Below the pieces are notes generated by a model. The model made no database searches, was not told the DNA's origin, and saw only the letters and a program-made list of their open reading frames with translations. From IMG/VR virus record IMGVR_UViG_3300032896_000431, positions 1,157 to 65,156 of that record: a stretch of 64,000 nucleotides of DNA, one strand, 5' to 3'. Each line of letters starts with the position of its first letter. Position 1 is the first letter of the stretch. The translations under genes were made by a program, and so were the position numbers. This DNA comes from a virus. Taxonomy: Duplodnaviria; Caudoviricetes. Shown here one piece after another: positions 5,611 through 36,368 of this stretch.

Positions 5611-5812
5611 GGAATATTTTTCCACACGCAAGTATGCCGACCGGCGGCTGTTCTCGCGTGGTGCTGTGGTATCCGGGGAATGGTAGTGGGTCAGCGTGAA
5701 TCTCGGCTTTCGACCCAAGCCCGTCGCTGGGTGCGATCCGAACCAACATCAAAAACAGACATTCGCAGAGTTCGACAAACGCCGCGCTGCGCGGTTGGCA
5801 ACTCGATCGCTC

Positions 5813-6751
5813 CTATAATAAAAACTCTTCTCTGATAACTAACCCGTAGACGTCCCTGCCGCTGCGCGTATGACCCGATTTCACAAAGCCGAGGGTTTCA
5901 AGCCAGGCGCGTCTGCGCGGATCAGCAGCGGGCGCCAGGACCTCGACGCCCTGGCGAAGTAGTCCACACAGCCTCAAATGGCTAAACGCCGCGCGGCCAA
6001 CAAATCCCAGGCTCGTGGTAACACCAGGTTTCAGCGCGACACTAATTAGCAAAGCATAGGGTGCAGACCGAGGATCCTGCAATTCCCCATCAGCGAGGTT
6101 ATATGCGACCACCTCACCATTCTTATATTTTGCAGCCACCTCCGCTGAAACTCCGAGGACAGCACAGATGCCTGAGGGTTCACCTTGCTGGCGACCGCTG
6201 ACTTGAGGCGAGAACCGAAGCCACCGTCGATTCTCAACCGGTGGAGGTTTAAGCAGCATCAGCGACGTAGGCTGGAGCCGGTGCCACGTGAAGATGGCGT
6301 GGATTTGGTCAGCCGGGGTTGCATTCCCTCCGAGAAAACTCGGTCGACGATGCGACTGTATCAACTCCTGATGGAGGCGCGAGAACACTAGCCTATCCTC
6401 CGGCCGTTGAACGAGTTCATATTCGGACGACTCTAACGGCTGAAGCACCAAGTTGAGAACTTCGGCCATCGTCTTGGCCTTCAACGGACCTGCACCAGGC
6501 ATCGAATGGGATGGGTCACTCGCACGGCGCGCCAGATAAATTTCGCCACCTAAGATCATCGTAAGCATAGCTAGCAAGGCGATTTTGAGAGATGATGACC
6601 AATCTGCAAGCCCGAGTTGGGTTCCGAATATTTCGAGAATCAGGGCGATGGCCGAACATATCAACTCCACGGTCAGTACAAGCCGATGATGCAGGGCGGC
6701 GAAGCCGCTAACTGCATAAAAGAACCTATCGACTGCGGCGATCATTCTCAT
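5813..6751 (-). CDS. 2-TM membrane protein with possible GNAT-like C-terminal domain
   Basis: Two N-terminal hydrophobic helices; VEVLAPAADPRRRAWLETLGFVKSG resembles GNAT motif B. Confidence 0.55.
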   Translation of the reverse strand: MRMIAAVDRFFYAVSGFAALHHRLVLTVELICSAIALILEIFGTQLGLADWSSSLKIALLAMLTMILGGEIYLARRASDPSHSMPGAGPLKAKTMAEVLNLVLQPLESSEYELVQRPEDRLVFSRLHQELIQSHRRPSFLGGNATPADQIHAIFTWHRLQPTSLMLLKPPPVENRRWLRFSPQVSGRQQGEPSGICAVLGVSAEVAAKYKNGEVVAYNLADGELQDPRSAPYALLISVALKPGVTTSLGFVGRAAFSHLRLCGLLRQGVEVLAPAADPRRRAWLETLGFVKSGHTRSGRDVYGLVIREEFLL

Positions 6752-6790
6752 GCAGGTACCAACCAACAGCGCCAGAGGTTCTTCAGTCGG

Positions 6791-7861
6791 CTAACGTCTC
6801 TGATTCGTACTAGTCGCCAACTCAGCCCATCTACTGAGCACAAAGTCACGTTGGGCTGCGTCTAATAATTGATGACCATACGTCCGCATCCCCGCCTCGA
6901 CGACCTTTTGGCCAAGAAACTTCCGGATGACCTGATCAATCCACCGAGGTGGGTCCTGTCTAGATGATAAGATACGGGACAAGATACTCAAATATACGGC
7001 CGCGATGCCTGGGACATCCCCGCACCGCCGCAGTCCATCCTTGATGTGGATAGATCTAAATATCAGCGGAAAATCGACCCATCTTCCTGTATTATCATCA
7101 AAATTCAACCTCGAGAAGTCCGAAGACGACACGATCCCGATCAAAAGAGATACATATGACGAAGCTGCGCGCGGTGACAGCAACCGAGCCTTAAAAGCTT
7201 CTTGGAGCGCCAGATCGATATACGACTGCCCTTGTAAGCGCCGCTCCGGACCAAGACCCTCAGATCCATTTTCGCCATCTTCAGAATGATCAGGGTCTTG
7301 CGATGCCGAAACAGGCGCCCCAATTTCGTCGGCAGTATATCGAACGTCCTTGTAAGGTTCTAGATGAGTGGTTGATGCCCTCCCTCCCCCTAGCGCTACG
7401 AAGTTCGACTCGACTAACAGCGGTGCAATGTCTGCCGGGACTCTTGGCTCCTGTTTGCGCGATATATAGATTCCGATCCCATGAAAATTCTGATGATCCT
7501 CATACACCTCAGCAGCGGCCCTACTGGAAAAAGAGAAGCCTTCAATTCTGCGAATTCGTCCACCCCTTCCCACCCTATTGACCTGCAGCTCACCTGTAAC
7601 TATGGCGCATTTGAAGTAATATGTATTCGCAAACATAGTGCTCCTTATCTTCTGAAGCCCCCGAAGCAACGCTGAGAGATCCTCGACATTGAAGACGGCA
7701 CTGTCGCTCAGCACATAACACTGACTGCTATCTCCGAGTTCATTCGCCAAGGCAGATACCTGGTTTAAGAATAAACCAAGCGCATCCGCGAGCCTCTCGG
7801 GCGGAAGCAGTGCACGCTGACGAGTCCCTATCAGGTCAAGGAATGCGACCCAGTTTGGCAT
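6791..7861 (-). CDS. Class III nucleotidyl cyclase-like protein
   Basis: WVAFLDLIG and YVLSDSAV supply the two metal-binding Asp; FKCAIVTGEL and AAAEVYED...IGIYIS follow cyclase-fold spacing. Confidence 0.65.
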   Translation of the reverse strand: MPNWVAFLDLIGTRQRALLPPERLADALGLFLNQVSALANELGDSSQCYVLSDSAVFNVEDLSALLRGLQKIRSTMFANTYYFKCAIVTGELQVNRVGRGGRIRRIEGFSFSSRAAAEVYEDHQNFHGIGIYISRKQEPRVPADIAPLLVESNFVALGGGRASTTHLEPYKDVRYTADEIGAPVSASQDPDHSEDGENGSEGLGPERRLQGQSYIDLALQEAFKARLLSPRAASSYVSLLIGIVSSSDFSRLNFDDNTGRWVDFPLIFRSIHIKDGLRRCGDVPGIAAVYLSILSRILSSRQDPPRWIDQVIRKFLGQKVVEAGMRTYGHQLLDAAQRDFVLSRWAELATSTNQRR

Positions 7862-7874
7862 GCCAACTCTCCCC

Positions 7875-8933
7875 TCACCCGGCGGCGACAAAGAATCGAA
7901 CCGGCGTAATAAAGTTGTCCGTGACTAGCCGCCGAAAATTCGGGGGCAGCTTGTCAGGCGGAAAGATCGCGACGGCACGCGAGGTCCATCGTCGCCGCTG
8001 AAATAGTGCCATGACCTGCCTGACGTCCCTCGATAACCTAGGCACCTCCCTTGGACGAATGAGGACGTAACTGCCCGGCGATGGATGCTTCGTCAATTCC
8101 TCCGCAATGGCCTTTGCGCTCAGCTGCCCCCCTATAAGTCTCCGCGATCGTAGGTTACGGATCGCGGCCTCTCTCGTCGGAAGAAAGGACGAGAGGCTCG
8201 TGGTGACGAATCGATCCCACATGCGAATTGCTTCGCCAAATGGATCGCGTCGAGCCTCTGCTCGCCCGAGCGACGTGAAGCTAACATATCTTGAATCTGG
8301 CAGCAGATCACCGTAGGGCGTTCTGCAGACGCGAGTTCCACTGAGCGCCGTGCCGTAGTCAGCAAGGGCGAACTCGACCTTGCGACGATAAAGCCCCTCG
8401 CGCGTCAATGCCTCGATCGCGGGTCTAAGCACGTCCATCATGCACTCAGAATTAGCAATGCTCATCTCCAAAATCAGATCGAGAACCAAGTCCGAGACCC
8501 TACGCTCAAATGTGCCGCTGCGCGCACCTCGCAAGCCGATGGACGCTTGTATCCAGGTGTCTCCCTCGGGACGCCACCCCGTGTCGTCCTTGGCAGAGTA
8601 CGCGACCACGAAACCCAGCTGGTTCGGGTCGGGTAATGGCTCGAGTGGGATGCGCGGCTCGGTAGCATAAATCGATACCCGAGCGACCCCAGCCGGCAGC
8701 TGTCGGAGATAATAGGCGGGGGTATCTAGCGCCGGGTCATCCGGCACGATTACATTCCTCGTTTCGAGATGAAAGGAGTGAGGCTGAAGGCCAGTCCACA
8801 GCCGAATCCTCTCAAGCTCCTCTGCGAGATTGCGTCGGCAAAAGACTACAACGTCGGCCAGCGGCGGAAGTTGGGGCTCCAAGCCCCGAACGAGCATCAC
8901 GTAACGGTGGTTCGAGAGGTCGGGCGGCGCCAT
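7875..8933 (-). CDS. Hypothetical protein, first gene of the cyclase operon
   Basis: 352-aa ORF with GGAGG RBS and lower GC; no family recognised. Confidence 0.7.
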   Translation of the reverse strand: MAPPDLSNHRYVMLVRGLEPQLPPLADVVVFCRRNLAEELERIRLWTGLQPHSFHLETRNVIVPDDPALDTPAYYLRQLPAGVARVSIYATEPRIPLEPLPDPNQLGFVVAYSAKDDTGWRPEGDTWIQASIGLRGARSGTFERRVSDLVLDLILEMSIANSECMMDVLRPAIEALTREGLYRRKVEFALADYGTALSGTRVCRTPYGDLLPDSRYVSFTSLGRAEARRDPFGEAIRMWDRFVTTSLSSFLPTREAAIRNLRSRRLIGGQLSAKAIAEELTKHPSPGSYVLIRPREVPRLSRDVRQVMALFQRRRWTSRAVAIFPPDKLPPNFRRLVTDNFITPVRFFVAAG

Positions 8934-9495
8934 AGGTTAACATTCCTCCCGCCCCTGGAGGTTCATCCTCCGAGGGTTCTACCGTCGTCAGGTTATTACG
9001 ACGTTAACATCACTTCTGGTTGAGAGACAAGTCACTGTCACTCATTTCGCGGACGGGTTGCAACACCCTCCCCGCACCACCGCCGCACTCGGCAGCGCCA
9101 GCCCCGTCGCATCACGAGACCTCCCACTCAGGATGCCCCGCCGTGCTCGCCTCGATATCCGCGACAACTCTCGCCAGTACCCTGTCCCACTGACCCTCGA
9201 TCATGGCGGTCATCCGTGCTGTTCGCGCTGGCGGAGGCGCCAGCAGTACGCGCTCGACGATCGCCCATCTCTTGCGCCGGGACCGGCCGTCCGGCGCCGC
9301 TGGGTGAATCTGGCCGTGATGATGGGGTCAAGTGGCGTCCCCGCCTGGAGGCGGGCAGACGGCTCAGCATCGAAAGCCGAGGTTCAAACCGACCAACTAC
9401 CCAGCGAATTTTCCGCTTGCGTTCTGGCAAAACGACTCGTATGGAGTCGGATATTGTTGGGGCAGTTGCGCCCTCCCCCCTTGCAAGGTGATCGA

Positions 9496-10137
9496 ATGGC
9501 TCGCCGGCCGGCTTCGCGGCAGGCGGATCAACCGTGGCTGCTGGCGATCGAGTTCAAGCGGCTGGACGATCTGCGCCCCGACCCGAACAACGCGCGCACG
9601 CACACCGAGCCGCAGATTGCGCTGGTGGAGAAGTCCCTGCTGGAGCGGGGATGGTATCTGCCGATCGGTGAGGGCGATGGGCAACTTGTCTTCGGCGAGG
9701 CCCGATGGCGGGCCGCGCAAAACATCCACGCGCGGCACCAGACGATTCGTGGTGCACCGGCTGGAATGGCGCCGGTGGTGGACCTGGCGCACCTGTCCCC
9801 GGCGGAACGGACGGCGCTGGCGCTGGCCGACAACCGGCTGGCCGAGCTGGCGGGATGGGATTCGGCGATCCTGGCCGAGCAAATCGGCCAGCTTGCCGGC
9901 CAGGGGTTCGATCTTGAGACGGTCGGGTTCACGGCGGATGACCTGGCGGCGATGACGACGGCGGCCGACCCTGCAGCCGTGGTGGAGACACCCGTGGCGC
10001 CGGTACAGGACCGGTTCTGGATCAGCGTCCGTGGGCCGCTGCGGAGTCAGGCGCGAGCGTTGAAGGCGCTGCAAAACCTGATGGCCGACATCGAAGGCGT
10101 GTCGGTGGAGCTGGGGACCGTCCTGGACGATGGTTAA
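9496..10137 (+). CDS. ParB/Srx N-terminal domain protein
   Basis: LDDLRPDPNNARTH...QLVFGEARWRAA...LALADNRLAELAGWD. Confidence 0.85.
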   Translation: MARRPASRQADQPWLLAIEFKRLDDLRPDPNNARTHTEPQIALVEKSLLERGWYLPIGEGDGQLVFGEARWRAAQNIHARHQTIRGAPAGMAPVVDLAHLSPAERTALALADNRLAELAGWDSAILAEQIGQLAGQGFDLETVGFTADDLAAMTTAADPAAVVETPVAPVQDRFWISVRGPLRSQARALKALQNLMADIEGVSVELGTVLDDG

Positions 10138-14329: not shown

Positions 14330-14884
14330 GAGAAATATTCAACTAATTTGAATACAAATGCATGGACAGGGGAAGGCGAGCGGGGCAGTCGCGGCTGGCT
14401 GAACAAGGTTCGGGCGGTCGGTTACGCGCGCGGGCGCGGCGGGCAGCGGGCGCAGCAGCAGCTTGCGGGCGCGGGATGTCCGGCGGTGACGGCCGGTCTG
14501 GCCGGACGTGCATGCGCAATATTGCTTCGTCGCCTCGACGGCGGAGCGAAGGAATGTTGCGCGCGGCATCCTGGCCGGCGGCAAATATGGTGCAGGGTTG
14601 CAAGGAACACCGTGCAACGCATTGACGGGGCGATGGTTTTGCCGGGTCGGCCCCTGCCCTATGCGGGCAGTGTCGGGCGGGGCGGGCGCGGCGGGCCGGG
14701 TTAGGCGGGGCCGGCCCCCGCCCCTGGACAGGGGGGGCAGGGGGTGGAGCGGCGGGCGCGGCCCCGCGGGCAACCGTCATCCGCGAACGTATTCAAAAAT
14801 TCTGGTGAAAAAATTGCGCGCTGAAATGTTTGGGGCGGATTGAAGGGGAGACTGTTCTCCCTGGTCGGGTGTCGAGCGGTAACA

Positions 14885-17000: not shown

Positions 17001-20000
17001 GAGAGCGGATCGGCTCGAACTCTAGCTTTCGGTAGTTCTCTGTGAGCCTGCCTCCGGGTCGGGATGCATCAAACCAGAGATTCGGCCTAAGACAGGGCTG
17101 GTCGCGAGCCGGTTGGCGCCTTTGGGGTGGTTAGGCCCCTATAGTCGACCTCCACCGGACGATACTGTGCGTACATGCTGGAGCCGTGCCGCTTGGCATC
17201 CTATCTGAGACGAATGAGCAGACGATCCGACAACCAGAACAGAGCATCCGACGACGACCAGAACGACGAACAATCGGTCCCGGCCGCACCGCGCCAGGTC
17301 GAAACCGACGCCGATATGATCGACGCACTGTCCGACTTCATCGTGCGCAACCCTAACGTGCTAGGCGGTGGTGATATCCTAACAATCACGGGCGGCAGGC
17401 CGGTGGCGCGGGCGGGCATGCTGGCGGCGATCCTCGCTGGCTTGGCACTCGAAGGAGGGGCGCGGGCAATAAGGGGATATCTGATCGTCATTCCCCCTGC
17501 CGCTGATGCGGTGGCGGGACGTGAGCGTGCATGGGAAGGGTTCACATTCGCATTCGCGCGTCTGGCGGGCCGATCCCTGACCCCGGCGGAGGAACATTGG
17601 CTTCTGAGCCGATTTGAGGTGCGGGCCGCCCCGGATGGCCGCGCCGCATCGATACTCGCGCTGATCGGCGACCAGCGCGAGCGAACGGCAATTATTGTCA
17701 CTGAAGCGGCCGATTATCGGGATGACGCAATTGCGCCGTTCGTGCGCGAGGGCGCGGAGACGCCACTAGTTGCAGAAGATGTGTGGGTTCCTCAGCTCCA
17801 CAGCCTGGCGCAGGCCGCTGTAGCGGTCGCAAGCGAGAAGAGCTTGTATGTCGCACTTGACGCGGATGAGCTCAGCCCAATTCGCCCGCAGCTTGAACAG
17901 TTGCTGCGGTCGGTCGATGGCTGCGGGGTCATGGGCGCCGCGGACGACAACCGACCTGAGACCATCCTGGCAAGACATGTGGATACATGGGATCGGTGGA
18001 TTGCCGAGGGGCGCGTTGGCCGAGTCTTGCGCGATGTCAACGAGCTTCCGACGACACTGAATTCCGAAAAGCCATTTCTGCGGGTCCAGCTTCTGCATAA
18101 GGCGGGGTTGCGCTTGGAAGCGCTCGCAGCGATTCGCAGCGAATTCCTGTCGAGAGGCCATCTCGATCCGTCGTCGCGCGTGCGGCTCGCCCGCATCGCG
18201 GGCGATGCAGGCGCATCACGGCTCGCCCGGGAACTTCTTGAGCCATGTATCACCCATCTCGACAGTCGGGAGGAACTCGAAAGCGCGCTTCGCACGGCCG
18301 AGGCCTCGGGATCTAACGAACTCCAACAAAAGCTCGCGAATCGACTGGAAACACGCTTTCCCGGCGCTGAGGGTGTGCAACGTCATCATCGGCGGTTGCT
18401 GTTGCGCGACCGTGATTACGCCAGCGTCGCTGATCTGCTGCGTCCCGCAGACGCCAAACGCGCTACATTCTATGACGCGCTCGCTACCGCTCTGTCCGGT
18501 AGCGAGATCCCGGACTATATGACGCTCATTGGCTCTGCGCAGGATAACAATCAGGCTGAGGCGTTTCGCCTCGCGAGCGTCGAGGACGCATTGTCACACT
18601 GCCTCACCGTGCATGCTTTCGAACTGGCGCTCGCCAGGCCGGCGAGTTCGGCACTCACCGAGCGCTGGCAGCGGCTCCTGCTTGAGGCCCTGGAACGCTG
18701 CTTCCTCGACTGCGGACCCAGCGGGAGTCCCCCGGTCGAGATGTCGCGCATTGAGGAAGGGCTGCGCGCGCTTGTGGCTAGCCTCGCCTGCGATCCGCTA
18801 AATGCTGCTCTGCGCTTCGGCCTAGTCGACCTCCTTCGGCCCAACGTGTCGGGAACAACTGGGCTCGCGCTAATCGCAAAATTGGTGTTAGACGAAGCTG
18901 CGAACCCTATCACCCCCAGCAAAGGCTTCAAGTTCGGTTCGGCCGGAATGGATTGGCTGCTCAATAAGAAGCCATTTCTCAACAGAGCTTTGGACTGGTT
19001 GAAGAGCGAAGAGCCAATATTGATCGGCAAGCTCGCGCTTCCGGCGGAGCTACTGACCGAGGATGCCGACGCGATACTCTCTGCGATCGCATCCTATCTA
19101 GAACGGGTTCCGCTTGCAGACGCAAGCGACATTGAGTCCCTGCAGCTCTGGCTGACATTGGCTGCCGCTGTCGCTCCGCACAGTTCCGACCCGGACGTCG
19201 ACCTTCGCTTGTACCGCCTGGCGGCTGGCAAGCTTGCGAGCTATGGCTTCCCACAGCATGCGCGCGACTTGGTTGAGGTGGCGGTACAGGCGGGCACTGC
19301 AACGCCGCGGCGACGTCGATTGGCGTGGTTTTCCGTTGCGGATGTCTACCACCGAGTGCGTGACTATCTCGCCGGACTTGTCGCGCTGGCCTGCGCCTTC
19401 GCGGCAGATGACCACGCGGATGAGGAAGAGATCTGGCAGGAGATCTATGCGCTCGCCCGCTTCATGCGCGATGCGGGCCTGTCCGACGTCGCGTTTGCGA
19501 CGATCGCAAAGGGCCGTGATGTGCTTGCGCGAATGTCACTTTTGAAACCGTATGGCCACAGACTTGACCTGCTCGAATTGCAAGTGAGGCAGACGCGCCT
19601 TGATGAGCACGATGCCAAGGGATTGGCGGAGCTCCTATCGGACGCAATTCGCGTCGGAAAGGAAGTATTGAAGCGTCGTGAGCAGACCGCGCCGGCAGGG
19701 ATCACTCTGGGCCAGCTTATCCGTGCGGCGCGTACCGCAGCTATCCCTATTCCCGATGACGCTGAAACCGTGTTCCGGAAGCTCAACAAATGGGCGGGCG
19801 GCAATCTGGCGGCGATGATAGTCGCAGCCTCGTCATCGGCGCCAACGGCCGCACAAGTGGCGGAGCTCGTGGCGAGCATGCCTCGTGCTCGCTATGCCGA
19901 GGATGTTGGCTTTGACACAAGCGTCGTGGCGAGACTCGCGCGTCGCGCTCTTACAGACAACGCCTTGCTATTAAACTCAGTGGAAACGTCGTTCACGCTC

Positions 20001-21282
20001 GAAGTGCTCTCTGATTGGGGCGCAGCGCTGCCCGGTTGGGACGAAGCTGCTGCGCCGCCCTCGGCCCTTCGAAAGGAAGAGCCGGCGGCGATTGCGAGAT
20101 CGATCTCCAGCTCGGGACCGGCCATCCTCCAGTTGGGGTTGGATGCCAACGGCAGCTTGATCCGCGCGATTTCGGCCAGCGGTCGGAATGGCGCGGCAAT
20201 CCGCGAGGCGTCAGACATCTTCTCTCAAGAGGCATTCCACGACTGGATGCTCGAATTTCCGAGGCGCTATGGCTACGACGACAGCCCGAACCTGTTCTAC
20301 ACAACGACTGATCGTCTGCGCTTGAGCGCTGTACCAGAAGGCCCGACGATTGTGGTTGCCGCAACTGAGCTACAGACCTTCCCGCCAAATCTGCTGTTCG
20401 CCAACGGCGAATTCCTAGGGCGCAGACAGCCTGTCGCTGCGGCACCATCCCTTGCATGGCTGAGTGGTGCGCGTGATCGGAGCCAGGCCGGAGACGGGCG
20501 GATGGTCGCATGGATTTCCACGGCCGAAGGCGAGGATGGTCGAGCAACGCTGTCGCTGCTAGCGCAGCGGCTTGAGGCGCCTTTTGCAGACTTTGGCTTC
20601 TTGTTAGACACCAGTCCAGTGATACCGCGAGGTTTTGCCGACGCGACCATGGCCGTGATCACCGCGCATGGGCGCGTCCATCCCGAAGGCCGCTATTTTC
20701 AAGTCGTGTCAGATGAGGGTACGTTAAGGGTATCCGCTGCAGATCTTGCTGCTGCCGTCCGAAATGTTGGAGTCGTTGTCCTATTTGTGTGCAGCGGCGG
20801 GCGGTCTGACAAGCACCCCGGAGCGAACACGACGCTCGGGCTCGCAAAGCAAATACTCGACCGTGGTTGCAGTGCCGTGATCGCATCGCCATGGCCGCTC
20901 GACTCCCAAGTGCCACCGCACTGGCTTCCTGCCTTTCTCGCCGAGTGGGCGAACGGAGCGACGCTGATCGAGGCAAATTTCTCTGCAAATCGCGTGGTCG
21001 ACGCGCGGTTTGCGCTCGACCCAGCAAGAGGCCTCGCAATGACCGTCTATGGCGACCCGCTCCTGAAAAGGCTGCGAAGTTAGGTGCACGATTCCGACAA
21101 GGATTAGTCGTACGCTGGGGGAACTGCAACCTTCGCAAGCAACGTTCTAGGACTGCTTCGACTAGCTTTGGCACGATGCAGTCTGCGTCAGGCAGTGCGG
21201 TACGCCCGCTCCTGAGGCGGCATCACGGCCAGCCCTATAACCGAGTTACATCGAAAGCGAAGATTCACGCTGATTCACTGAC
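17001..21282. mobile_element. TIR-flanked cassette 2 (TPR-CHAT)
   Basis: Right end 21251-21282 matches the cassette-1 left end at 26/32; left end 17001-17032 is degenerate; no flanking duplication visible. Confidence 0.6.
17214..21083 (+). CDS. Large helical-repeat (TPR-like) protein with C-terminal CHAT caspase-like protease
   Basis: AVITAHG (His) ... VVVLFVCSGG (Cys) ... AVIASPWPL ... VYGDP; long amphipathic helical region. Confidence 0.85.
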   Translation: MSRRSDNQNRASDDDQNDEQSVPAAPRQVETDADMIDALSDFIVRNPNVLGGGDILTITGGRPVARAGMLAAILAGLALEGGARAIRGYLIVIPPAADAVAGRERAWEGFTFAFARLAGRSLTPAEEHWLLSRFEVRAAPDGRAASILALIGDQRERTAIIVTEAADYRDDAIAPFVREGAETPLVAEDVWVPQLHSLAQAAVAVASEKSLYVALDADELSPIRPQLEQLLRSVDGCGVMGAADDNRPETILARHVDTWDRWIAEGRVGRVLRDVNELPTTLNSEKPFLRVQLLHKAGLRLEALAAIRSEFLSRGHLDPSSRVRLARIAGDAGASRLARELLEPCITHLDSREELESALRTAEASGSNELQQKLANRLETRFPGAEGVQRHHRRLLLRDRDYASVADLLRPADAKRATFYDALATALSGSEIPDYMTLIGSAQDNNQAEAFRLASVEDALSHCLTVHAFELALARPASSALTERWQRLLLEALERCFLDCGPSGSPPVEMSRIEEGLRALVASLACDPLNAALRFGLVDLLRPNVSGTTGLALIAKLVLDEAANPITPSKGFKFGSAGMDWLLNKKPFLNRALDWLKSEEPILIGKLALPAELLTEDADAILSAIASYLERVPLADASDIESLQLWLTLAAAVAPHSSDPDVDLRLYRLAAGKLASYGFPQHARDLVEVAVQAGTATPRRRRLAWFSVADVYHRVRDYLAGLVALACAFAADDHADEEEIWQEIYALARFMRDAGLSDVAFATIAKGRDVLARMSLLKPYGHRLDLLELQVRQTRLDEHDAKGLAELLSDAIRVGKEVLKRREQTAPAGITLGQLIRAARTAAIPIPDDAETVFRKLNKWAGGNLAAMIVAASSSAPTAAQVAELVASMPRARYAEDVGFDTSVVARLARRALTDNALLLNSVETSFTLEVLSDWGAALPGWDEAAAPPSALRKEEPAAIARSISSSGPAILQLGLDANGSLIRAISASGRNGAAIREASDIFSQEAFHDWMLEFPRRYGYDDSPNLFYTTTDRLRLSAVPEGPTIVVAATELQTFPPNLLFANGEFLGRRQPVAAAPSLAWLSGARDRSQAGDGRMVAWISTAEGEDGRATLSLLAQRLEAPFADFGFLLDTSPVIPRGFADATMAVITAHGRVHPEGRYFQVVSDEGTLRVSAADLAAAVRNVGVVVLFVCSGGRSDKHPGANTTLGLAKQILDRGCSAVIASPWPLDSQVPPHWLPAFLAEWANGATLIEANFSANRVVDARFALDPARGLAMTVYGDPLLKRLRS

Positions 21283-26124: not shown

Positions 26125-26156
26125 AGCCGGTGTTCCCTCTGGGGCGCCGGCTTTTT
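26125..26156 (+). terminator. Intrinsic terminator-like hairpin upstream of the capsid gene
   Basis: AGCCGGTGTTCC-CTCT-GGGGCGCCGGCT followed by TTTT. Confidence 0.45.
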
Positions 26157-26207
26157 CATCTCCCCTGCGCCGGGTTGCGCGCGCTCCAACACGAAAGGGA
26201 CGCCAGC

Positions 26208-28269: not shown

Positions 28270-28483
28270 TCCCTTCGCGATGGGTAGTGTCTCAGTCTGA
28301 ATTTTTGACCCAGGGCGGACAAAGCAGACCGGCGCGTCGACGCCGAAGCCGTGGCGCACCACCCCACACCGCAGAACCCGGGCTTGCCCCCTACTTGGCA
28401 GAGCGATGTCATCTGTATATTGCTGCTGCATCTGTTGGCCGCATAGCGTACGTTGTCTACGCTAGCTCGGGAGGGATGCTTCA

Positions 28484-29419
28484 GTGCGGCATCTGAGACC
28501 AGCGCTACTCACCTTAATTCAGGCGGTCAGCGTACCGATCATTCTGGAGGGGTTGTGGGCAGCCTACTGTTGGGGTCAAGGCTGGCCGACGTACTTCCGT
28601 TGGTTGGTGATCGGCTGCGAGTTCTTGATAACTCTGCTTGTTATAATTGGCCTACGCGTATGGGCGGCGGTCTGGCTTGCAAGTTTCATACATGCTGCAA
28701 ATGCGATTCGCTGGTCTGATTTGGGATCGTGGGTAGCAAAACAGAAGGTTGTGAGCTGGGGATCAGGTATTATACTCGTTCCCTTATATATCGTCCATTT
28801 TTTGAAGAAGGCCGTTTCGCATTGCGACGCCTCGAACATAAACTGGGCTTCTCACATAGCCTGTCAGTTTGACAGAGATGTCATGGCGTTTGATTTTCTA
28901 GGCCACCACTACGAAGCCACTGACATACTTACAATAGAGCTGCTCGGTCTTCTTATCGGCTTCGTCGCTCTGTACCTCTACAGAGCTTGGGCGCCTCCAC
29001 CTCTGAAGCAGCCCCCAAAGCTTGGACTCGCGGATGCATTGCGAGAGTGGCCACACGGGATCAAGGGGTACCAGCTAGCGAACACTCTCTCGCAGCAAGT
29101 AGATGAACAAGCGGCGAAGCCCGAATGGAGCAACCACGACTGGTCCAGCGCTCGGGAGGCAGTTAGTCAGCTCGACGAGGTGTCGATGCTCGATAACGAT
29201 CCAGGTGCAGCGCTTCAGGCTGGACGGGTAATCGAACTATTTCCGAAGATTCCGGGATTTCAAGAGCGCATGACACGTCTGTTTTTCGATGCCCTACACC
29301 CTGCAAGGCGCTGGGTGTTGGCGGGTATGCTTGCCGTCAGCGAGGTCTTGACCGCGTTCCCAATCCTGATACGCATCATTACCACCTTTTTCGAACGGCT
29401 TGGAGGAACACCGCAATGA
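28484..29419 (+). CDS. Multi-pass membrane protein
   Basis: About 4-6 hydrophobic segments; low GC. Confidence 0.7.
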   Translation: MRHLRPALLTLIQAVSVPIILEGLWAAYCWGQGWPTYFRWLVIGCEFLITLLVIIGLRVWAAVWLASFIHAANAIRWSDLGSWVAKQKVVSWGSGIILVPLYIVHFLKKAVSHCDASNINWASHIACQFDRDVMAFDFLGHHYEATDILTIELLGLLIGFVALYLYRAWAPPPLKQPPKLGLADALREWPHGIKGYQLANTLSQQVDEQAAKPEWSNHDWSSAREAVSQLDEVSMLDNDPGAALQAGRVIELFPKIPGFQERMTRLFFDALHPARRWVLAGMLAVSEVLTAFPILIRIITTFFERLGGTPQ

Positions 29420-29793
29420 ATGTGGACATGCCGCGCGGGATGCGGGATGAAGACTGGATTCTTTTTGCGGGTCGCATCGGCAACCAGGATGCTCACGAAG
29501 TCCACCTCGTGCCAGCAGAAGATGACGATATATCCATTGTTCATTCGAAGCAGGATGTCCATACGACAACCGATAGCGCGCAAAACACGTGGATATTTGT
29601 CCGCAAAGGTGCTCGATACGTTCGTTTTGTTGTTGGGCGTTATTCAAACTATTCTACCAGATCTGTCAGAGGTGACCGTTGCAGCCACAATTGCTCGGGA
29701 AGCTGTCAGTGTGTGGGACAGGTGGAATATTGCTGCAATGGCGGCGTGGCTGTGGGTTCGTGCTATGGCGAATGGGCGTGCCAAAATCCCTGA
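29416..29793 (+). CDS. Small protein with an 8-Cys C-terminal segment
   Basis: GGAGG RBS, ATGA overlap; CSHNCSGSCQCVGQVEYCCNGGVAVGSCYGEWAC. Confidence 0.7.
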   Translation: MNVDMPRGMRDEDWILFAGRIGNQDAHEVHLVPAEDDDISIVHSKQDVHTTTDSAQNTWIFVRKGARYVRFVVGRYSNYSTRSVRGDRCSHNCSGSCQCVGQVEYCCNGGVAVGSCYGEWACQNP

Positions 29794-29955
29794 GGTAGCC
29801 AAATAGGAACTATTTCAACAGTCTAATCTGCTCTACCCCGTCCTGCGTCAACCACTGCTCCGCTCGGTCGTAGAGCGGGGTTGTGGGGCCAGCGTCGTAC
29901 GTCCAACCCCCACCCAAAGCCGAAGTTCAAACTGACCCGCTGCCGGGGGCGACCT

Positions 29956-32089: not shown

Positions 32090-33700
32090 ATGCCAATCGT
32101 GCAGCAAGGGCAGATCAACACGACTGCCCTGGTGGTGCCGGACCTGTACGTCCAGATCGTGCCGCCGCAGAACCTCGTGGTGAACGGGGTGCCGACCAAC
32201 GTTGTCGGCGTGGTGGGCACGGCGTCGTGGGGGCCGGCGAACACACCGGCCATCATCCCGGACATGCCGACCTATGCGGCGACCTTCGGCCCGGTGATGC
32301 CGCGCAAGTACGACATGGGGACGCAGGTGGCGACGGCGGTGCAGCAGGGCGCCAGCAATTTCCGTTGCGTCCGGGTCACCGACGGGACCGACACCGCGGC
32401 AACAGCGCTGTTTAACGGCAGCACCACCGGCGATTGCTCGCTGATCGTCACGTCGCTCTACACCGGGTCGGAGGCGAACGGCGACACGTTCACACTGTCG
32501 GCCGGCTCGGCGGCGGGATCCTACAAGGCGACCGTGGCGCGGCCGGGCCTGACGCCGGAGGTGTTCGACAACATTCCGGCTGCAACCGGCTCCCCCTTCT
32601 GGTCGGCCGTTGCGGTCGCGGTGAACAGCGGCAACGGCCCGCTGCGGGGCAAGTCGAACCTGGTCAGCGTGGCGGCGGGCGCCGGCGCCAATGCCTCGGT
32701 GAATGTGAGCAGCCTGACGCTGCCCATGACGGCGACGCTGGGGGTCGGCGCCGGGGCGGTGGCCGGCACCGACGGCGTCACCACACTGTCTGCCGCGACG
32801 CTGGTGGGACAGGACACGCTGCCGCGCAAGGGCATGTACTGCCTGCGCGGACAGGGTTGCTCCATCGGCCTGCTGGCGGACACCGACGACTCAACGCAGT
32901 GGACGACGCAGGCGGCGCTTGGGTTGCAGGAGGGGATTTACATGATCCTCACCGGGCCGGCGGGCGACACCATCACCAACGCGACCACCACGAAGGCAAC
33001 GGCGGGGCTGGACACCTATGGCGCCAAGCTGATGTTCGGCGATTGGCTGTGGTGGAACGACCAGACCAACAACATCGTCCGCCTGGTCTCGCCGCAGGGA
33101 TTCGCCGCCGGCCGCCTGGCGAACCTCTCGCCTGAGCAATCCAGCCTGAACAAGCCGATCTACAGCATCGTGGCGTCGCAGAAGTCCGGCTCTCCCGCCT
33201 CGCCGCAGACCGGGACGTATGCCTCGGCCGATCTGGCGGCACTGCTGGGCGCCGGCATCGACGTGATCTGCAACCCGCAGCCGGGCGGCACCTATTGGGG
33301 CGTCCGAGGCGGACACAACGCCAGCAGCAACGCGGCGATCAACGGCGACAACTATACGCGGCTGACCAATTACATCGCGGCCACGCTGGCGGCGGCGATG
33401 GGCCAGTTCGTCGGCATGACGATCGACGCCGATCTGTTCGACGACATCCGCAGTGCGGAACTCGGGTTCCTGCAAAACATGCTCGACCAGGGCATGCTGG
33501 GCAGCACCGACGGCAGCATTCCGTTCTCGGTGGTGTGCGACACGTCGAACAATCCGCCGAGCCGCACCGGCCTGGGTTACGTGCAGTCCAACGCTCAGGT
33601 GCAGTACATGGCGATCAACGAGAAGTTCATCGTCAACATCGAAGGCGGCACGACGGTTCAGGTGACCACGCAAACGCTGCCTTCCGGTCAGCCGGCATAA
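32090..33700 (+). CDS. Contractile tail sheath protein
   Basis: VVPDLYVQIV, VVGVVGTASWGP, SPEQSSLNKP, FSVVCDTSNN. Confidence 0.9.
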   Translation: MPIVQQGQINTTALVVPDLYVQIVPPQNLVVNGVPTNVVGVVGTASWGPANTPAIIPDMPTYAATFGPVMPRKYDMGTQVATAVQQGASNFRCVRVTDGTDTAATALFNGSTTGDCSLIVTSLYTGSEANGDTFTLSAGSAAGSYKATVARPGLTPEVFDNIPAATGSPFWSAVAVAVNSGNGPLRGKSNLVSVAAGAGANASVNVSSLTLPMTATLGVGAGAVAGTDGVTTLSAATLVGQDTLPRKGMYCLRGQGCSIGLLADTDDSTQWTTQAALGLQEGIYMILTGPAGDTITNATTTKATAGLDTYGAKLMFGDWLWWNDQTNNIVRLVSPQGFAAGRLANLSPEQSSLNKPIYSIVASQKSGSPASPQTGTYASADLAALLGAGIDVICNPQPGGTYWGVRGGHNASSNAAINGDNYTRLTNYIAATLAAAMGQFVGMTIDADLFDDIRSAELGFLQNMLDQGMLGSTDGSIPFSVVCDTSNNPPSRTGLGYVQSNAQVQYMAINEKFIVNIEGGTTVQVTTQTLPSGQPA

Positions 33701-33718: not shown

Positions 33719-34165
33719 ATGAGTGCATCGGTGACGCAGGTCAACGACTTCTCGACCGGCAATGACCTCCGGTTGGTGCTGATTTTCGGCCTGTTGGGCC
33801 GCATCGATTTGCAGCACAAGGTGGGGTTCCGGGCGACGCCGGTGGTGAAGCAGCTCCGGATCAACAAACTTTCTGCCCCGCCGATCGGGCGCGACGTTCC
33901 CGGCGGGTGGAACATCGCCATCTCGCTGGAACGCGGCAACTCGGTTGCCGACAACCTGATGGCGACGCTGGAGCAAATGTATTGGTCCGGGCAGCGCCTG
34001 CCAACCGGCCAGGTTTACCAGTACATCCGCGAACCGGATGGCTCGCGTTCGACGTTCTTCTTCAACCCGGTGACGCTGCACCTGTCGGATGCCGGCAACT
34101 GGCGGCAGGAGGTGACGGTGCAGCAGACCATCACCGGATTCTCCGGCACGAGGAGGCGCCTGTAA
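33719..34165 (+). CDS. Tail tube protein
   Basis: About 148 aa, beta-rich, directly after the sheath. Confidence 0.75.
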   Translation: MSASVTQVNDFSTGNDLRLVLIFGLLGRIDLQHKVGFRATPVVKQLRINKLSAPPIGRDVPGGWNIAISLERGNSVADNLMATLEQMYWSGQRLPTGQVYQYIREPDGSRSTFFFNPVTLHLSDAGNWRQEVTVQQTITGFSGTRRRL

Positions 34166-34536
34166 TGGCCGAAACACCGACCGTCGTCACCGATGCACGG
34201 GGACGCAAGCTCTCGATCCGGCTGCCGGATGCGGGGGATCAGTTCGACCTGATCGAAATCGCCGGAGCCGTCGCCGACAACCGCCCGTGGATGTTCCGGG
34301 CGATGGTGGTGTACGCGGTGTCGGCGATCGACGGCGTGCCGCTGCCGTTGCCGGCCAGCAAGGACGATCTGAAAACCAACGCGCGCGCCCTGGGCGACGA
34401 CGGCATCATGGCGGTGATGGAGTCGCTGTTTCCCGAGGCGGTTGCCGCGGCCAGGGCGGCGGATGCCAGGGCGCGCGGCGAGAAGCTGCCGCCGCCCGGG
34501 CCGGATGGCGCGATGCTGGTCGCCGCAAAAAACTGA
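34165..34536 (+). CDS. Tail assembly chaperone (gpG-like)
   Basis: VTDARGRKLSIR; ends GCA AAA AAC TGA. Confidence 0.8.
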   Translation: MAETPTVVTDARGRKLSIRLPDAGDQFDLIEIAGAVADNRPWMFRAMVVYAVSAIDGVPLPLPASKDDLKTNARALGDDGIMAVMESLFPEAVAAARAADARARGEKLPPPGPDGAMLVAAKN

Positions 34537-34706
34537 GCCGGCACCCCGTTGTCCGGGACACGCTGTACCTGGTCAGCAAGGGGGTGCCGTGGGACGTGGC
34601 GGTGAAGCTGTCGCCGGCGCGGCGGTTCGCTTTCTGCGTTGCCCTAGGCGAGCTCGGCGGCGGCAAGTTCGATTGGCGGGTACGCCAGTGGGTTGACCCG
34701 AAATGA
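34527..34706 (+). CDS. -1 frameshift extension of the tail chaperone (gpGT-like)
   Basis: Slippery heptamer A AAA AAC at 34527-34533; the -1 frame reads KKLSRHPVVRDTLYLVSKGVPWDVA...FDWRVRQW. Confidence 0.75.
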   Translation, partial: KKLSRHPVVRDTLYLVSKGVPWDVAVKLSPARRFAFCVALGELGGGKFDWRVRQWVDPK

Positions 34707-34732
34707 CCCGCCGACGTGGGTGAGGAACGAGC

Positions 34733-34930
34733 ATGGCAGACGAACTTATGGAGCGCATCCGAGACGCCGTCGTTGCGGAGTGCCTGTTTCAGCCTGCCGA
34801 CAGGGTGCGGCGGGCGGTAACGACGGTTTGCGATGGCATCCTGTCCTGCCTGGATGATCCCGCGCAGGACTGGCCCGGCTCGCCGGCCATCGGTTCGCAT
34901 CTGCTGGCGTGGGGAGCCAATGATGGGTAG
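34733..34930 (+). CDS. Small hypothetical protein; stop codon supplied by the cassette TIR
   Basis: GAGGA RBS; its TAG lies inside the GGTAG of the repeat. Confidence 0.5.
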   Translation: MADELMERIRDAVVAECLFQPADRVRRAVTTVCDGILSCLDDPAQDWPGSPAIGSHLLAWGANDG

Positions 34931-36368
34931 TAGATCGGTCTGAATCTCACCTTTCGACCCCAGCGGGCCCTGATCCATTCGTTGCCTCAGAACGATGCCC
35001 ATAGTAAAATCGAACAAAACCTCTTGCCCACGTTGAGTGAATCGTCGACGACTCCTATGTTACCCTTTCTTGGCTCTATGGCGGCACCGGAAAACGCGGC
35101 CTTCTTGCGGCCGCTTACGCGAATGTTCGCATACTCTCTTGCGCGACAACAGGCAGATCTTAACATGACCAAAAGGGATAGGTGGACCGAGGACGACGCC
35201 AGGAACCTACCGAGTGAAGAGCCGGACGCGTTTGAGCGCAAATCCGGAAAGCTTTTCGACAGCGGCCAGGACCTTTTCTTGAATGCGCTAGCCAAGGCGC
35301 TTTCGGCTTTTGCCAACTCAGGTGGAGGGTCAATCATAATTGGCGTACGCGACGACGGTACCTTCGATGGCCTCACTCCTTATGTCGGGCGCGCGACCAT
35401 ACGTGATTGGATTGAGATGAAGGTACCTACGCTGTTGGAATATCCTTTGTCGGATTTTCGCGTTCATACGGTAGAGAGAGGCGATTCTTCAGGAGTGCCT
35501 GCTGGCCGTGTAGTCGTCGTCATCGATGTGGGGGACAGTGCCGTCGCACCCCATCAAAGCAAGAGGGATAAAATCTACTATCGACGCGAGGGCGGAAGGT
35601 CGGTGCCTGCTCCTCATTTCTATTTAGAACTGTTGAGACAACGGCTAACAAACCCTAGGCTGGAGATAGAGCTAAAGGAGATTAAACCGTTCCATGCGTA
35701 CGAGATTGCGGATCAAGAAGGAATACTAGTTAAGTTGAAGCTCGGCTTCTTGGTGCAGAACATCGGTCGGGTCTCGGCGAATAACTGGCAAATAAATATT
35801 CGGACCCTGTCTTGGGATAGCGCGCTAGATTTCAAAAGAGCAGAAGACATCATGTTTTCTGGCTTCCCAGAACCCAAGGTTCGCAAGTCAGTAGAGACCA
35901 CCATCCCGTTTGGAAGCCGGGCGATTTTGCCTGGCTGCAGCTACCTTGAGCACAGAGAGGTAGGGCTCCACCTGCGCCCGACGTTGCGGACTTTTGACGA
36001 GCTCGTAAGGGAGTTGGACGCTTTGATACTGCCGATCTCCATCGGCTGCCAAGTTGCGACTGAGACGTCACCAGGTGAGCTTGTCTCGGTCAAATTGAGT
36101 CCAGCCTATGACGCTGCGACAATCAAGGCTGCAATTGCCCAATCCTGTCCTGAATTTCTTGCGGCCACGCCGTCACAGGACGGTGTTGCACCTAACTATC
36201 CCGCTAAATCTGGTGAATCCGAAGCATGATCACTTCCATTTATTAGCGTGGTGCATTGTCGAGGTCCCACGATCAATCGAGTTTTACGTCAATCCAGCCA
36301 CAGCCCAGCGGACGCCGCGAAACGTCCCGTCCCCACTTCAAAGCTGAAGTTCAAACCGACCCACTGCC
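34926..36368. mobile_element. TIR-flanked cassette 4 (Schlafen/AlbA_2)
   Basis: Inverted repeats at 34926-34957 and 36337-36368 (23/32); flanks CAATGATG / AAATGATG (7/8). Confidence 0.8.
35165..36229 (+). CDS. Schlafen/AlbA_2 domain protein with Ig-like C-terminal domain
   Basis: EEPDAFERKS, LAKALSAFANSGGGSIIIGVRDDG, PHQ...YYRREG; C-terminal LGFLVQNIGRVSANNWQINI. Confidence 0.85.
   Translation: MTKRDRWTEDDARNLPSEEPDAFERKSGKLFDSGQDLFLNALAKALSAFANSGGGSIIIGVRDDGTFDGLTPYVGRATIRDWIEMKVPTLLEYPLSDFRVHTVERGDSSGVPAGRVVVVIDVGDSAVAPHQSKRDKIYYRREGGRSVPAPHFYLELLRQRLTNPRLEIELKEIKPFHAYEIADQEGILVKLKLGFLVQNIGRVSANNWQINIRTLSWDSALDFKRAEDIMFSGFPEPKVRKSVETTIPFGSRAILPGCSYLEHREVGLHLRPTLRTFDELVRELDALILPISIGCQVATETSPGELVSVKLSPAYDAATIKAAIAQSCPEFLAATPSQDGVAPNYPAKSGESEA

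What the first reader, a model, noticed from the sequence alone, without database searches (positions are those of the whole stretch)
5682..36368. Family of transposase-less, TIR-bounded cargo cassettes loading defence-like genes into a prophage
Seen: the same ~32-bp imperfect repeat brackets four lower-GC cargo blocks in inverted orientation. Ends, with right ends reverse-complemented: 5682 GGTAGTGGGTCAGCGTGAATCTCGGCTTTCGA / 9401 GGTAGTTGGTCGGTTTGAACCTCGGCTTTCGA; 17001 (degenerate) / 21282 GTCAGTGAATCAGCGTGAATCTTCGCTTTCGA; 28283 GGTAGTGTCTCAGTCTGAATT / 29944 GGCAGCGGGTCAGTTTGAACTTCGGCTTTGGG; 34926 GGTAGTAGATCGGTCTGAATCTCACCTTTCGA / 36368 GGCAGTGGGTCGGTTTGAACTTCAGCTTTGAA. Two cassettes have near-identical 8-bp flanks. 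All sit at gene boundaries, none encodes a recombinase, and the cargos are unrelated (cyclase operon, TPR-CHAT, membrane + Cys-rich protein, Schlafen). Known: IS1595-family elements make 8-bp target duplications and can carry passenger genes, and non-autonomous mobile insertion cassettes exist. Inference: a trans-mobilised cassette system that delivers anti-phage morons, whose end motif could serve as a tag for finding new defence genes.
Basis: partly seen in the sequence, partly recalled or inferred. Interest (0 to 1): 0.92.

Follow-up and report, generated by a model that had tools for sequence, protein, structure and literature searches.

The report
IS1-type cargo cassettes inside a phage
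Four foreign gene blocks in this phage genome are transposase-less cargo cassettes bounded by the end repeats of an IS1-family transposon, which shows one concrete way that phages pick up extra, possibly defensive, genes.

Summary
Eight copies of a 22-34 bp motif (GGTAGTG..TCAGTTTGAA..) lie in strict +/- alternation around four low-GC blocks of a myovirus-like phage contig. Shuffled sequence gave none.

The motif is the terminal inverted repeat of a widespread IS1-family transposon group, not IS1595. Elsewhere, inverted pairs of this motif carry 8-bp target duplications: 21 of 26 pairs in genomes (at least 6 of 8 bases identical) and 23 of 38 in viral contigs (at least 7 of 8). An IS1-type transposase sits next to the motif in 28 of 32 transposase loci. 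One 585-bp transposase-less cassette occurs in several genomes at different sites, and two copies have their own duplications.

The window's contig has no transposase. Cassettes 4 and 1 keep 7/8 and 6/8 duplications. Two related phages lack the cassettes, and one has a single AAATGATG at the homologous site of cassette 4. So these are mobile insertion cassettes, presumably moved in trans.

The defence claim is only partly supported. The window's cargo (CHAT, Schlafen, unknowns) matches no PADLOC model. Chromosomal cassettes of the same long-end subtype carry mostly accessory genes (2 of 41 ORFs hit PADLOC). Short-end relatives in viral contigs often carry Rosmer-, PD-Lambda-2- or BstA-type genes.

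Verdict: a new variant of a known kind.

The parts
5682..9401 (.). Cassette 1 (3720 bp, GC 0.565). The ends are 5682-5715 (+) and 9368-9401 (-). The 8-bp flanks are 5674-5681 CGGGGAAT and 9402-9409 CAGCGAAT (6/8).
   Evidence: The upstream phage gene 9397-11013 (-) now stops at the TAG inside the end repeat.
5813..8933 (-). Cargo of cassette 1: three co-directional ORFs (5813-6766, 6791-7891, 7875-8933) of unknown function.
   Evidence: No Pfam, PADLOC or NCBIfam hit. For 6791-7891 the Atlas neighbours are unnamed clusters, and the nearest named one is Guanylate_cyc at 0.90, a lead only. No PDB relative.
17001..21282 (.). Cassette 2 (4282 bp, GC 0.613). The left end 17001-17034 is degenerate (PWM 12.3, missed by nhmmer). 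The right end 21249-21282 scores 24.3. There is no target duplication (1/8).
17175..21083 (+). Cargo of cassette 2: a 1302-aa protein with a C-terminal CHAT protease domain.
   Evidence: Pfam PF12770 CHAT, E 1.3e-09, residues 1164-1267. No PADLOC hit. No PDB relative by sequence.
28283..29944 (.). Cassette 3 (1662 bp, GC 0.545). At the left end only the 22-nt core 28283-28304 is conserved (core score 37.6). The right end is 29911-29944 (43.9). There is no target duplication (2/8).
28484..29793 (+). Cargo of cassette 3: two overlapping ORFs (28484-29419, 311 aa; 29416-29793, 125 aa) of unknown function.
   Evidence: No Pfam, PADLOC or NCBIfam hit.
34926..36368 (.). Cassette 4 (1443 bp, GC 0.532). 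The ends are 34926-34959 (+) and 36335-36368 (-). The 8-bp target duplication is 34918-34925 CAATGATG and 36369-36376 AAATGATG (7/8).
   Evidence: The small upstream ORF 34733-34930 stops at the TAG inside the end repeat. Relative L128 has one AAATGATG at the homologous junction.
35165..36229 (+). Cargo of cassette 4: a Schlafen/AlbA_2-domain protein. The called product is 354 aa; the longest ORF starts at 34982.
   Evidence: Pfam PF04326, E 4e-12. 399 relatives at E <= 1e-10, all listed ones with PF04326 except one. No PADLOC hit. A promoter-like site lies at 34982-35010 inside the cassette.

Best explanation
The four blocks are mobile insertion cassettes. These are non-autonomous derivatives of an IS1-family transposon group: each has the transposon's terminal inverted repeats and one to three passenger genes, but no transposase.

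Likely mechanism, with the status of each step:
- (Inferred) While the phage DNA sat in a host cell, most likely as a prophage, an IS1-type DDE transposase encoded elsewhere in that cell bound the two ends. It moved the cassette into the phage genome with an 8-bp staggered cut.
- (Shown) Such a cut leaves an 8-bp target duplication, and this is still readable at cassettes 4 and 1.
- (Inferred) Only insertions between genes that run with the flow of phage transcription left the phage viable. That would explain why all four sit at gene boundaries and are co-oriented with their neighbours.
- (Inferred) Cassette 2, with decayed ends and no duplication, is probably old and immobile.
- (Inferred) Cassettes 1, 3 and 4 have ends good enough to move again.
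- (Inferred) The cargo acts as morons that may benefit the lysogen. A defence role is plausible for the CHAT and Schlafen proteins but is not shown.
For: (1) Motif and pairing are real.

(2) The same motif is the end of transposable elements elsewhere.
Most consensus-like hits are in Alphaproteobacteria.
- Of 26 inverted pairs there, 21 have >=6/8 identical 8-bp flanks and 9 are perfect. Shifted-flank controls gave 1 of 26 and 0 of 26.
- In IMG/VR, 38 inverted pairs were found: 22 with perfect flanks, one with 7/8 and 15 with <=3/8.

(3) The cognate enzyme is identified.
- Elements in L057 (2614 bp, duplication AAACGAAC), L046 and L054 hold a ~300-aa IS1-type transposase.
- The transposase is present in 50 of 401 sampled Alphaproteobacteria.
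- 28 of 32 transposase loci carry the end motif. In 17 of them it lies within about 50 bp past the 3' end of the gene.
- Named examples are the Hoeflea sp. IMCC20628 plasmid NZ_CP011481.1 (4224 bp, GATGATTG) and the Acidiphilium multivorum plasmid NZ_CP041717.1 (2634 bp, AAGCCGAG). Both are annotated 'IS1 family transposase'.

(4) Transposase-less cargo copies are the rule for the window's long-end subtype.
- Only 3 loci among the 96 ends have a transposase within 3.5 kb.
- One 585-bp cassette is present at 75-87% identity in 5 further loci. Two copies have different perfect duplications, GCCATTCG and CAAGCAGG.

(5) The window's contig has no transposase.

(6) Sites are empty in relatives.
- 160 related phage loci (1.78 Mb) carry no such end.
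- In L128 the genes flanking cassettes 3 and 4 are adjacent, and a single AAATGATG sits at the cassette 4 site.
- In L437 the genes flanking cassettes 1 and 3 are adjacent, and terminase to portal is 440 bp.

(7) The cassettes are 7-15 GC points below the backbone.
Against: - No transposition event was observed.
- The host genome is not available, so the transposase that would act in trans is unknown.
- In five genomes that hold long-type ends, transposase relatives were only 47-51% identical to the L057 enzyme. They were flanked by short-type ends and were found in only 3 of 5 genomes.
- Cassettes 2 and 3 lack target duplications.
- Related phages are only 56-71% identical in protein. The empty sites are therefore gene-level, except for the single 8-mer at site 4.
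- Contigs of three wetland runs show only the cassette-bearing form. No precise empty-site joint appeared among the 15 of 39 joints that were shown.
- None of the window's cargo proteins matches a known defence model.
Confidence: 0.85

Rival explanations
1. Each block arrived as an autonomous IS1-type transposon that carried passenger genes, and later lost its transposase by internal deletion inside the phage. On this view no trans-mobilisation of a cassette was needed.
For: Deletion derivatives exist. L362 (454 bp) and L379 (776 bp) are pairs with perfect duplications that keep only a transposase fragment. Autonomous elements with 1-4 kb of passengers are common.
Against: No transposase remnant is detectable in the window; tblastn gave only noise at E > 5. 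In autonomous copies the transposase ends about 20-50 bp from one end repeat, so four clean deletions that spare the repeat would be needed. The long-end subtype is almost always transposase-less elsewhere (3 loci of 96 ends). One such cassette has inserted independently at different sites.
Confidence: 0.1
2. The repeats belong to the phage itself, for example as boundary or regulatory sequences, or as sites for a phage recombinase that swaps modules. On this view they are not transposon ends.
For: They lie exactly at gene boundaries, and the cargo runs with phage transcription.
Against: None of 160 related phage loci has them. The same repeats bound elements with 8-bp duplications in bacterial chromosomes and plasmids, next to an IS1-type transposase.
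Confidence: 0.02
3. The cassettes are real transposon derivatives but selfish or neutral hitch-hikers. The cargo has no anti-phage role and gives the lysogen no benefit.
For: 0 of 8 window cargo proteins hit PADLOC. Chromosomal cassettes of the same subtype carry GSTs, methyltransferases, transporters and dehydrogenases, and only 2 of 41 ORFs hit PADLOC.
Against: CHAT and Schlafen/AlbA_2 domains occur in known immune proteins (recalled, not tested here). Related short-end elements in viral contigs carry BstA, RmrA and PD-Lambda-2_B homologues. This rival concerns function only and is compatible with the main explanation.
Confidence: 0.45

Closest known systems
IS1-family insertion sequences (ISfinder family IS1; Pfam DDE_Tnp_IS1 PF03400)
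   Same: The cognate autonomous elements encode a PF03400 transposase that NCBI names 'IS1 family transposase'. The ends begin GGTAGTG, which fits the family's GGnnnTG ends (a family feature I recalled from ISfinder). They make a short target duplication of 8 bp.
   Different: The transposase is a single ~290-320-aa ORF with an N-terminal HTH. It scores below the NCBIfam IS1 cut-off (71.8 against 100). The elements usually carry passenger genes. The window's copies have no transposase at all.
Mobile insertion cassettes (MICs), e.g. IS231-MIC231 of Bacillus cereus and Tn3-derived MICs of Xanthomonas, and 'transporter IS' elements with passenger genes
   Same: IS-type inverted repeats around passenger genes, with no transposase and presumed activation by a cognate transposase in trans. 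This is the definition given in passages of PMC3129680. For the Xanthomonas case (PMC4337579) I saw only the search listing and the start of the abstract.
   Different: These derive from a different IS family (IS1 type). There are four copies with unrelated cargo inside one phage genome. The subtype has a longer conserved end (..CTTTCGACC) and is almost entirely non-autonomous.
IS1595 family
   Same: 8-bp target duplication, passenger-carrying members and a distant relation to IS1 (Siguier et al. 2009, seen only as a reference in PMC3129680).
   Different: The transposase does not meet the IS1595 model (20.1 bits against a cut-off of 75).
Phage morons
   Same: Extra genes of deviant GC content sit between conserved phage genes, are co-oriented with them, and are dispensable in relatives.
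   Different: Here the mode of entry can be read from the sequence: inverted repeats plus a target duplication. Classical morons have no such scars (recalled).
Defence cargo on Tn7-like transposons (PMC8649781; search listing and start of abstract only)
   Same: Transposons act as vehicles of defence systems. Short-end IS1-type relatives in viral contigs carry RmrA, PD-Lambda-2_B, BstA and R-M homologues.
   Different: Much smaller elements, a different transposase, no target-site selector, and many non-autonomous copies.

Membership tests
IS1 family (autonomous relatives of the cassettes) | DDE transposase of the IS1 type (PF03400) | tested here: met
   The L057 transposase scores 32.5 bits against a cut-off of 24.1. 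12 of 73 ORFs of the viral-contig elements and 2 of 41 of the genome elements match at E <= 1e-5. Relatives are annotated 'IS1 family transposase'. The NCBIfam IS1 equivalog scores below its cut-off (71.8 against 100).
IS1 family (autonomous relatives of the cassettes) | Terminal inverted repeats beginning GGnnnTG (feature recalled from ISfinder) | tested here: met
   The consensus is GGTAGTGnnTCAGTTTGAA. It was found at 28 of 32 transposase loci and at all 8 ends in the window, 2 of them degenerate.
IS1 family (autonomous relatives of the cassettes) | Short target-site duplication (8-9 bp, recalled) | tested here: met
   8 bp. 21 of 26 pairs have >=6/8 identical flanks, against 1 of 26 and 0 of 26 in controls. 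22 of 38 pairs in viral contigs are perfect.
IS1 family (the window's cassettes as insertion sequences in their own right) | Encodes its own transposase | tested here: not met
   No transposase homologue in the contig. No transposase domain in the cargo ORFs.
Mobile insertion cassette (MIC) | IS-type inverted repeats at both ends | tested here: met
   The left end of cassette 2 is weak.
Mobile insertion cassette (MIC) | Passenger gene(s) and no transposase between the ends | tested here: met
Mobile insertion cassette (MIC) | Target-site duplication of the length made by the parent IS | tested here: inconclusive
   Cassette 4 has 7/8 and cassette 1 has 6/8. Cassettes 2 and 3 have 1/8 and 2/8.
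Mobile insertion cassette (MIC) | Mobilised in trans by the cognate transposase | not testable with these tools
   Only comparative support. The same 585-bp transposase-less cassette sits at different sites, and two copies have their own perfect duplications.
IS1595 family | IS1595-type transposase (NCBIfam NF033547) | tested here: not met
   20.1 bits against a cut-off of 75.
Known anti-phage defence systems (PADLOC-DB 2.0) | A cargo protein matches a defence-system model | tested here: not met
   0 of 8 window proteins match at E <= 0.01; these are the seven cargo ORFs plus 24941-25909.

The most novel reading that the evidence does not exclude
In peat and wetland Alphaproteobacteria, a largely non-autonomous IS1-derived cassette family shuttles single operons between chromosomes, plasmids and prophages. 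It would thus be a general, scar-leaving route by which phages gain morons. On this reading the four cargo operons here (the three-gene operon, TPR-CHAT, the membrane protein plus Cys-rich protein, and Schlafen) are previously unrecognised anti-phage or superinfection-exclusion systems. The end motif, when it occurs inside viral contigs, would then mark new defence genes.
Probability: 0.3. Interest if true: 0.85.

Novelty: new variant of a known kind. Interest (0 to 1): 0.7.

Why it matters
How phages acquire morons is usually put down to untraceable illegitimate recombination. Here the entry route can be read directly from the sequence: IS1-type inverted repeats, an 8-bp duplication, and an empty site in a relative. 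It can also be tested with a simple trans-mobilisation assay.

The work also defines a large and, as far as my searches show, undescribed group of IS1-type passenger-carrying transposons with cassette and miniature derivatives. Members of this group found in viral contigs often carry known defence genes (Rosmer RmrA, PD-Lambda-2, BstA, R-M). That gives a bounded, small search space for new phage-borne defence or exclusion genes.

The limit is that the subtype present in this window carries ordinary accessory genes in chromosomes. The motif alone is therefore not a defence tag.

Tried and rejected
- A scan of IMG/VR with the long-end pattern GGYAGYNNNTCRGNNTGAAYYTNNNCTTT found 0 stretches. A second long-end pattern without the terminal bases found 95 stretches. 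None has a GG(T/C)AG(T/C) terminus, the best matrix score is 24.0 against 37-44 for good ends, and several are plainly a conserved gene start. So I found no other viral contig with the long-end subtype. The window's own record may be left out of these scans.
- Sequencing runs: three wetland metagenome runs hold the stretch, and two may be the source. Their contigs bridge the junctions of cassettes 2, 3 and 4 exactly as in the window. The listed joints have short sides (20-38 letters) and none matches the cassette ends. Only 15 of 39 joints were shown. This gives no evidence either way for an empty-site allele.
- Donor copies of the cargo:
  - The Schlafen protein is recorded on two contigs, the longer of 86,831 bp.
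  - Relatives in two chromosomes (L313, 48% identity; L314, 55%) have no end repeats nearby.
  - No close relative of the Schlafen protein or of 6791-7891 was found in viral contigs.
- The 'cyclase' label for 6791-7891:
  - Pfam, NCBIfam and PDB sequence searches were empty.
  - The single-sequence AlphaFold model was too poor to search with (mean pLDDT 41.5), so no fold search was run.
  - The Atlas lead is 0.90 only.
- PDB sequence searches for the CHAT and Schlafen proteins were empty.
- A fifth low-GC block (24848-26048) has GTAGT..CGGTCTG at its left edge. nhmmer and the weight matrix do not support end repeats there, so I did not count it.
- I compared the flanks of cassettes 2 and 3 with each other by eye, using the flanks printed, to look for an inversion or exchange. 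They do not match.
- A literature search for part of the motif as a string returned only unrelated papers.
- Earlier-findings look-up by sequence was blank.
- Supplementary files of papers were not consulted.

Full report
WHAT IS IN THE WINDOW.

The window is almost all of a 65,156-bp record that the tools treat as a virus. It encodes a terminase large subunit (14840-16417), a terminase small-subunit-like protein (16414-16971) and a portal (22654-24192). It also encodes a scaffold (24206-24847), a major head protein (26049-27623), a tail sheath (32090-33700), a tape measure (36898-39174) and baseplate and tail proteins. No integrase was seen among the 20 backbone proteins scanned.

Four blocks of lower GC content interrupt a backbone of GC 0.684. 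Their GC values are 0.565, 0.613, 0.545 and 0.532.

THE OBSERVATION.

Seven of them are the ends as described, against 0.09 matches expected. A 34-nt weight matrix built only from ends found in other genomes picks exactly eight sites in the window. They alternate strictly +/- at 5682, 9401, 17001, 21282, 28283, 29944, 34926 and 36368. Fifty shuffles gave no hit.

nhmmer recovers seven of the eight. The left end of cassette 2 is too decayed for it. Similarity among the ends runs for about 32-42 nt.

The 8-bp flanks match 7/8 at cassette 4 and 6/8 at cassette 1, but not at cassettes 2 and 3. In cassettes 1 and 4 the upstream phage gene now ends at the TAG inside the terminal GGTAGT.

All four cargos run in the same direction as the neighbouring phage genes.

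WHAT THE MOTIF IS.

The consensus-like hits are mostly in Alphaproteobacteria: Methylocella, Methylocapsa, Methylocystis, Methylosinus, Rhodopila, Acidocella, Roseiarcus, Aestuariivirga, Rhizobium and Novosphingobium. A few are in Terriglobia, Gammaproteobacteria and Burkholderiales.

Where both ends lie in the stretch held, they form inverted pairs 68 bp to 6,952 bp apart. Of 26 pairs with enough flank to test, 21 have at least 6 of 8 identical flanking bases and 9 are perfect. Shifted-flank controls gave 1 of 26 and 0 of 26. These are therefore transposable elements that make 8-bp target duplications.

What lies between the ends is diverse. The only protein shared by three loci is a ~300-aa transposase. 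It meets Pfam DDE_Tnp_IS1 (32.5 bits against a cut-off of 24.1). It does not meet the IS1595 model (20.1 against 75), and it is below the strict NCBIfam IS1 cut-off (71.8 against 100). At least 8,000 relatives exist. Those with a name are called 'IS1 family transposase'.

The link between enzyme and ends is systematic. The transposase occurs in 50 of 401 sampled Alphaproteobacteria. Of 32 loci fetched around it, 28 carry the GGTAGTG..TCAGTTTGAA end. In 17 of them the end lies within about 50 bp beyond the 3' end of the gene.

Complete autonomous elements with perfect duplications are seen in four places:
- L057: 2614 bp, AAACGAAC.
- Many IMG/VR contigs.
- The Hoeflea sp. IMCC20628 plasmid: 4224 bp, GATGATTG.
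- The Acidiphilium multivorum JZ-6 plasmid: 2634 bp, AAGCCGAG.

They carry 1-4 kb of passenger genes besides the transposase.

NON-AUTONOMOUS COPIES AND THEIR MOBILITY.

The window's ends belong to a 'long' subtype in which the 22-nt core is followed by nnnCTTT(C/T)GACC. The genome scan required this extension, and 55 of the 62 genome-scan ends picked up by a looser core pattern have it. It is rare at transposase-adjacent ends (2 of 28) and in the viral-contig set (1 of 155).

Only 3 loci among the 96 long-type ends have a transposase within 3.5 kb. Miniature 68-bp forms also exist.

One 585-bp cassette with a single ~158-aa ORF recurs at 75-87% identity in five further loci from other contigs. 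Two copies have different perfect duplications, GCCATTCG and CAAGCAGG. A transposase-less cassette of this subtype has therefore inserted more than once.

Five genomes that hold long-type ends have 1-6 such ends each, and the reversed-pattern control found 0. Three of the five have IS1-type transposase relatives (47-51% identity to L057's). These are flanked by short-type ends that share the core. Cross-mobilisation is plausible but not shown.

EMPTY SITES.

The contig has no IS1-type transposase.

None of 80 IMG/VR loci and 80 metagenome loci with related sheath genes carries an end. These loci are 63-71% identical in the sheath protein and total 1.78 Mb.

In relative L128, the genes that flank cassette 3 are adjacent, with stop, 12 nt, then start. 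The start of the gene downstream of cassette 4 is preceded by ..tggggagtcaagAAATGATG... That is one copy of the 8-mer that is duplicated around cassette 4 in the window, with the same upstream ggggag.

In L437 (terminase 61% identical, from a 47-kb contig):
- The homologues of 4797-5492 and 9397-11013 are about 150 bp apart, against 3.9 kb in the window.
- Their intergenic sequence is alignable by eye with the window's flanks.
- Terminase to portal is 440 bp.
- The genes that flank cassette 3 are adjacent.

These relatives are distant. Apart from site 4, the empty sites are therefore gene-level only.

CARGO AND THE DEFENCE CLAIM.

Window cargo:
- A CHAT protease domain at the end of a 1302-aa protein, and a Schlafen/AlbA_2 protein, are confirmed.
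- The three genes of cassette 1 and the two of cassette 3 have no Pfam, PADLOC or NCBIfam match.
- The 'cyclase' label rests only on a 0.90 Atlas lead.
- 0 of 8 proteins match PADLOC.

Chromosomal elements found with the long-end pattern: I scanned 41 of the 55 ORFs called in 21 of the 23 listed elements, choosing the longer ones. They match GST, methyltransferase, DUF3604, HupE/UreJ, DMT exporter, GyrI-like, zinc dehydrogenase, HWE kinase and nested IS families. Only 2 of 41 hit PADLOC, both on the mad2 model.

A scan of IMG/VR with the core alone gave a different picture. It returned at least 120 loci, 42 of them with the transposase. There were 38 inverted pairs: 22 perfect, one 7/8 and 15 with <=3/8. 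Of the 38, 21 had a transposase or a fragment and 17 had none.

Among 73 ORFs of >=100 aa from 33 of these elements:
- Pfam finds 12 IS1 transposases, 8 HTH_3, 7 Peptidase_M78 and single R-M, AbiEii-like, HigB, SocA and Mrr domains.
- PADLOC finds RmrA in 6 (best E 2.5e-131), PD-Lambda-2_B in 3, and BstA, RmrT and MTase_I in 1 each.

blastp clusters of 6 and 3 proteins lie next to the transposases. I infer, without a per-protein test, that these are the RmrA and PD-Lambda-2_B sets. One member, L322:5552-6703, was confirmed as PD-Lambda-2_B.

L336 is a 1945-bp transposase-less cassette with the perfect duplication CGACGATT. It carries a BstA homologue (E 6.1e-122). The cargo of five other transposase-less viral-contig cassettes that I tested had no PADLOC hit.

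So IS1-type elements do carry defence genes into viral contigs. The window's own subtype and cargo give no direct evidence of defence.

CONCLUSION.

The blocks are IS1-family-derived mobile insertion cassettes. The ends, the duplication rule, the cognate transposase family, the existence and repeated insertion of transposase-less copies, and the absence of the cassettes from relatives are all shown here. Mobilisation in trans in this phage's host, selection for intergenic co-oriented insertions, and any benefit of the cargo are inferred.

The concept of MICs and of passenger-carrying IS is established (passages of PMC3129680). I found no paper that describes this IS1-type group or its presence in phages. 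The library lacks most subscription journals, and I could not query ISfinder.

I rate it a new variant of a known kind, with interest 0.7.

Noticed in passing
window 24848-26048: A fifth low-GC block (GC 0.54) lies between the scaffold and major head genes. It holds a reverse-strand 322-aa ORF (24941-25909) with a weak DUF3800 match (E 0.0028, below cut-off). Its left edge reads GTAGT..CGGTCTG right at the scaffold gene's TAG, like a decayed end repeat. The weight matrix and nhmmer do not support this.
   Followed up: partly
L054, L006, L339, L358, L403, L420, L421, L431; Hoeflea plasmid locus L436:2786-3973: A 350-395-aa XRE-HTH plus Peptidase_M78 protein is a recurrent neighbour of the IS1-type transposase; PADLOC matches RmrA of Rosmer in 6 of 73 ORFs. 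It may be defence cargo, or it may be a regulatory module of the transposon itself.
   Followed up: partly
L001:7391-7543, L035:4734-4801, L114:16-83: 68-bp miniature elements made of two back-to-back end repeats. L035 and L114 have 7/8 and 8/8 flank matches. L001 and L035 are from a Terriglobia MAG; the title of L114 was not shown. This is outside the Alphaproteobacteria, where most copies lie.
   Followed up: no
loci (e.g. L286, L287, L291-L294): Many full-length transposase matches contain exactly one in-frame stop codon (TAA, TAG or TGA). This could be decay or a recoding signal, such as the frameshift of classical IS1.
   Followed up: no
window 52712-64000 and G000:C1:1-1156 (outside the window): Two giant ORFs (2090 aa and >1668 aa) of lower GC content follow a lysis-like gene. 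The first 1156 bases of the contig hold a ~390-bp tandem duplication, then a stretch that I read by eye as Hint-domain-like (not tested with any tool). This may be the continuation of the last ORF if the record is circular.
   Followed up: no
window 34165-34930: The tail chaperone gene (34165-34536) has an overlapping frame that continues as a G/GT-like frameshift product. A small extra ORF (34733-34930) lies between it and cassette 4, and relative L128 lacks that ORF.
   Followed up: partly
H7, Brevundimonas phage vB_BpoS-Gurke ON529850.1:174788-175672: The only isolated phage among 50,697 records with a relative of the transposase (35.5% identity). No feature is annotated under the match.
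   Followed up: no
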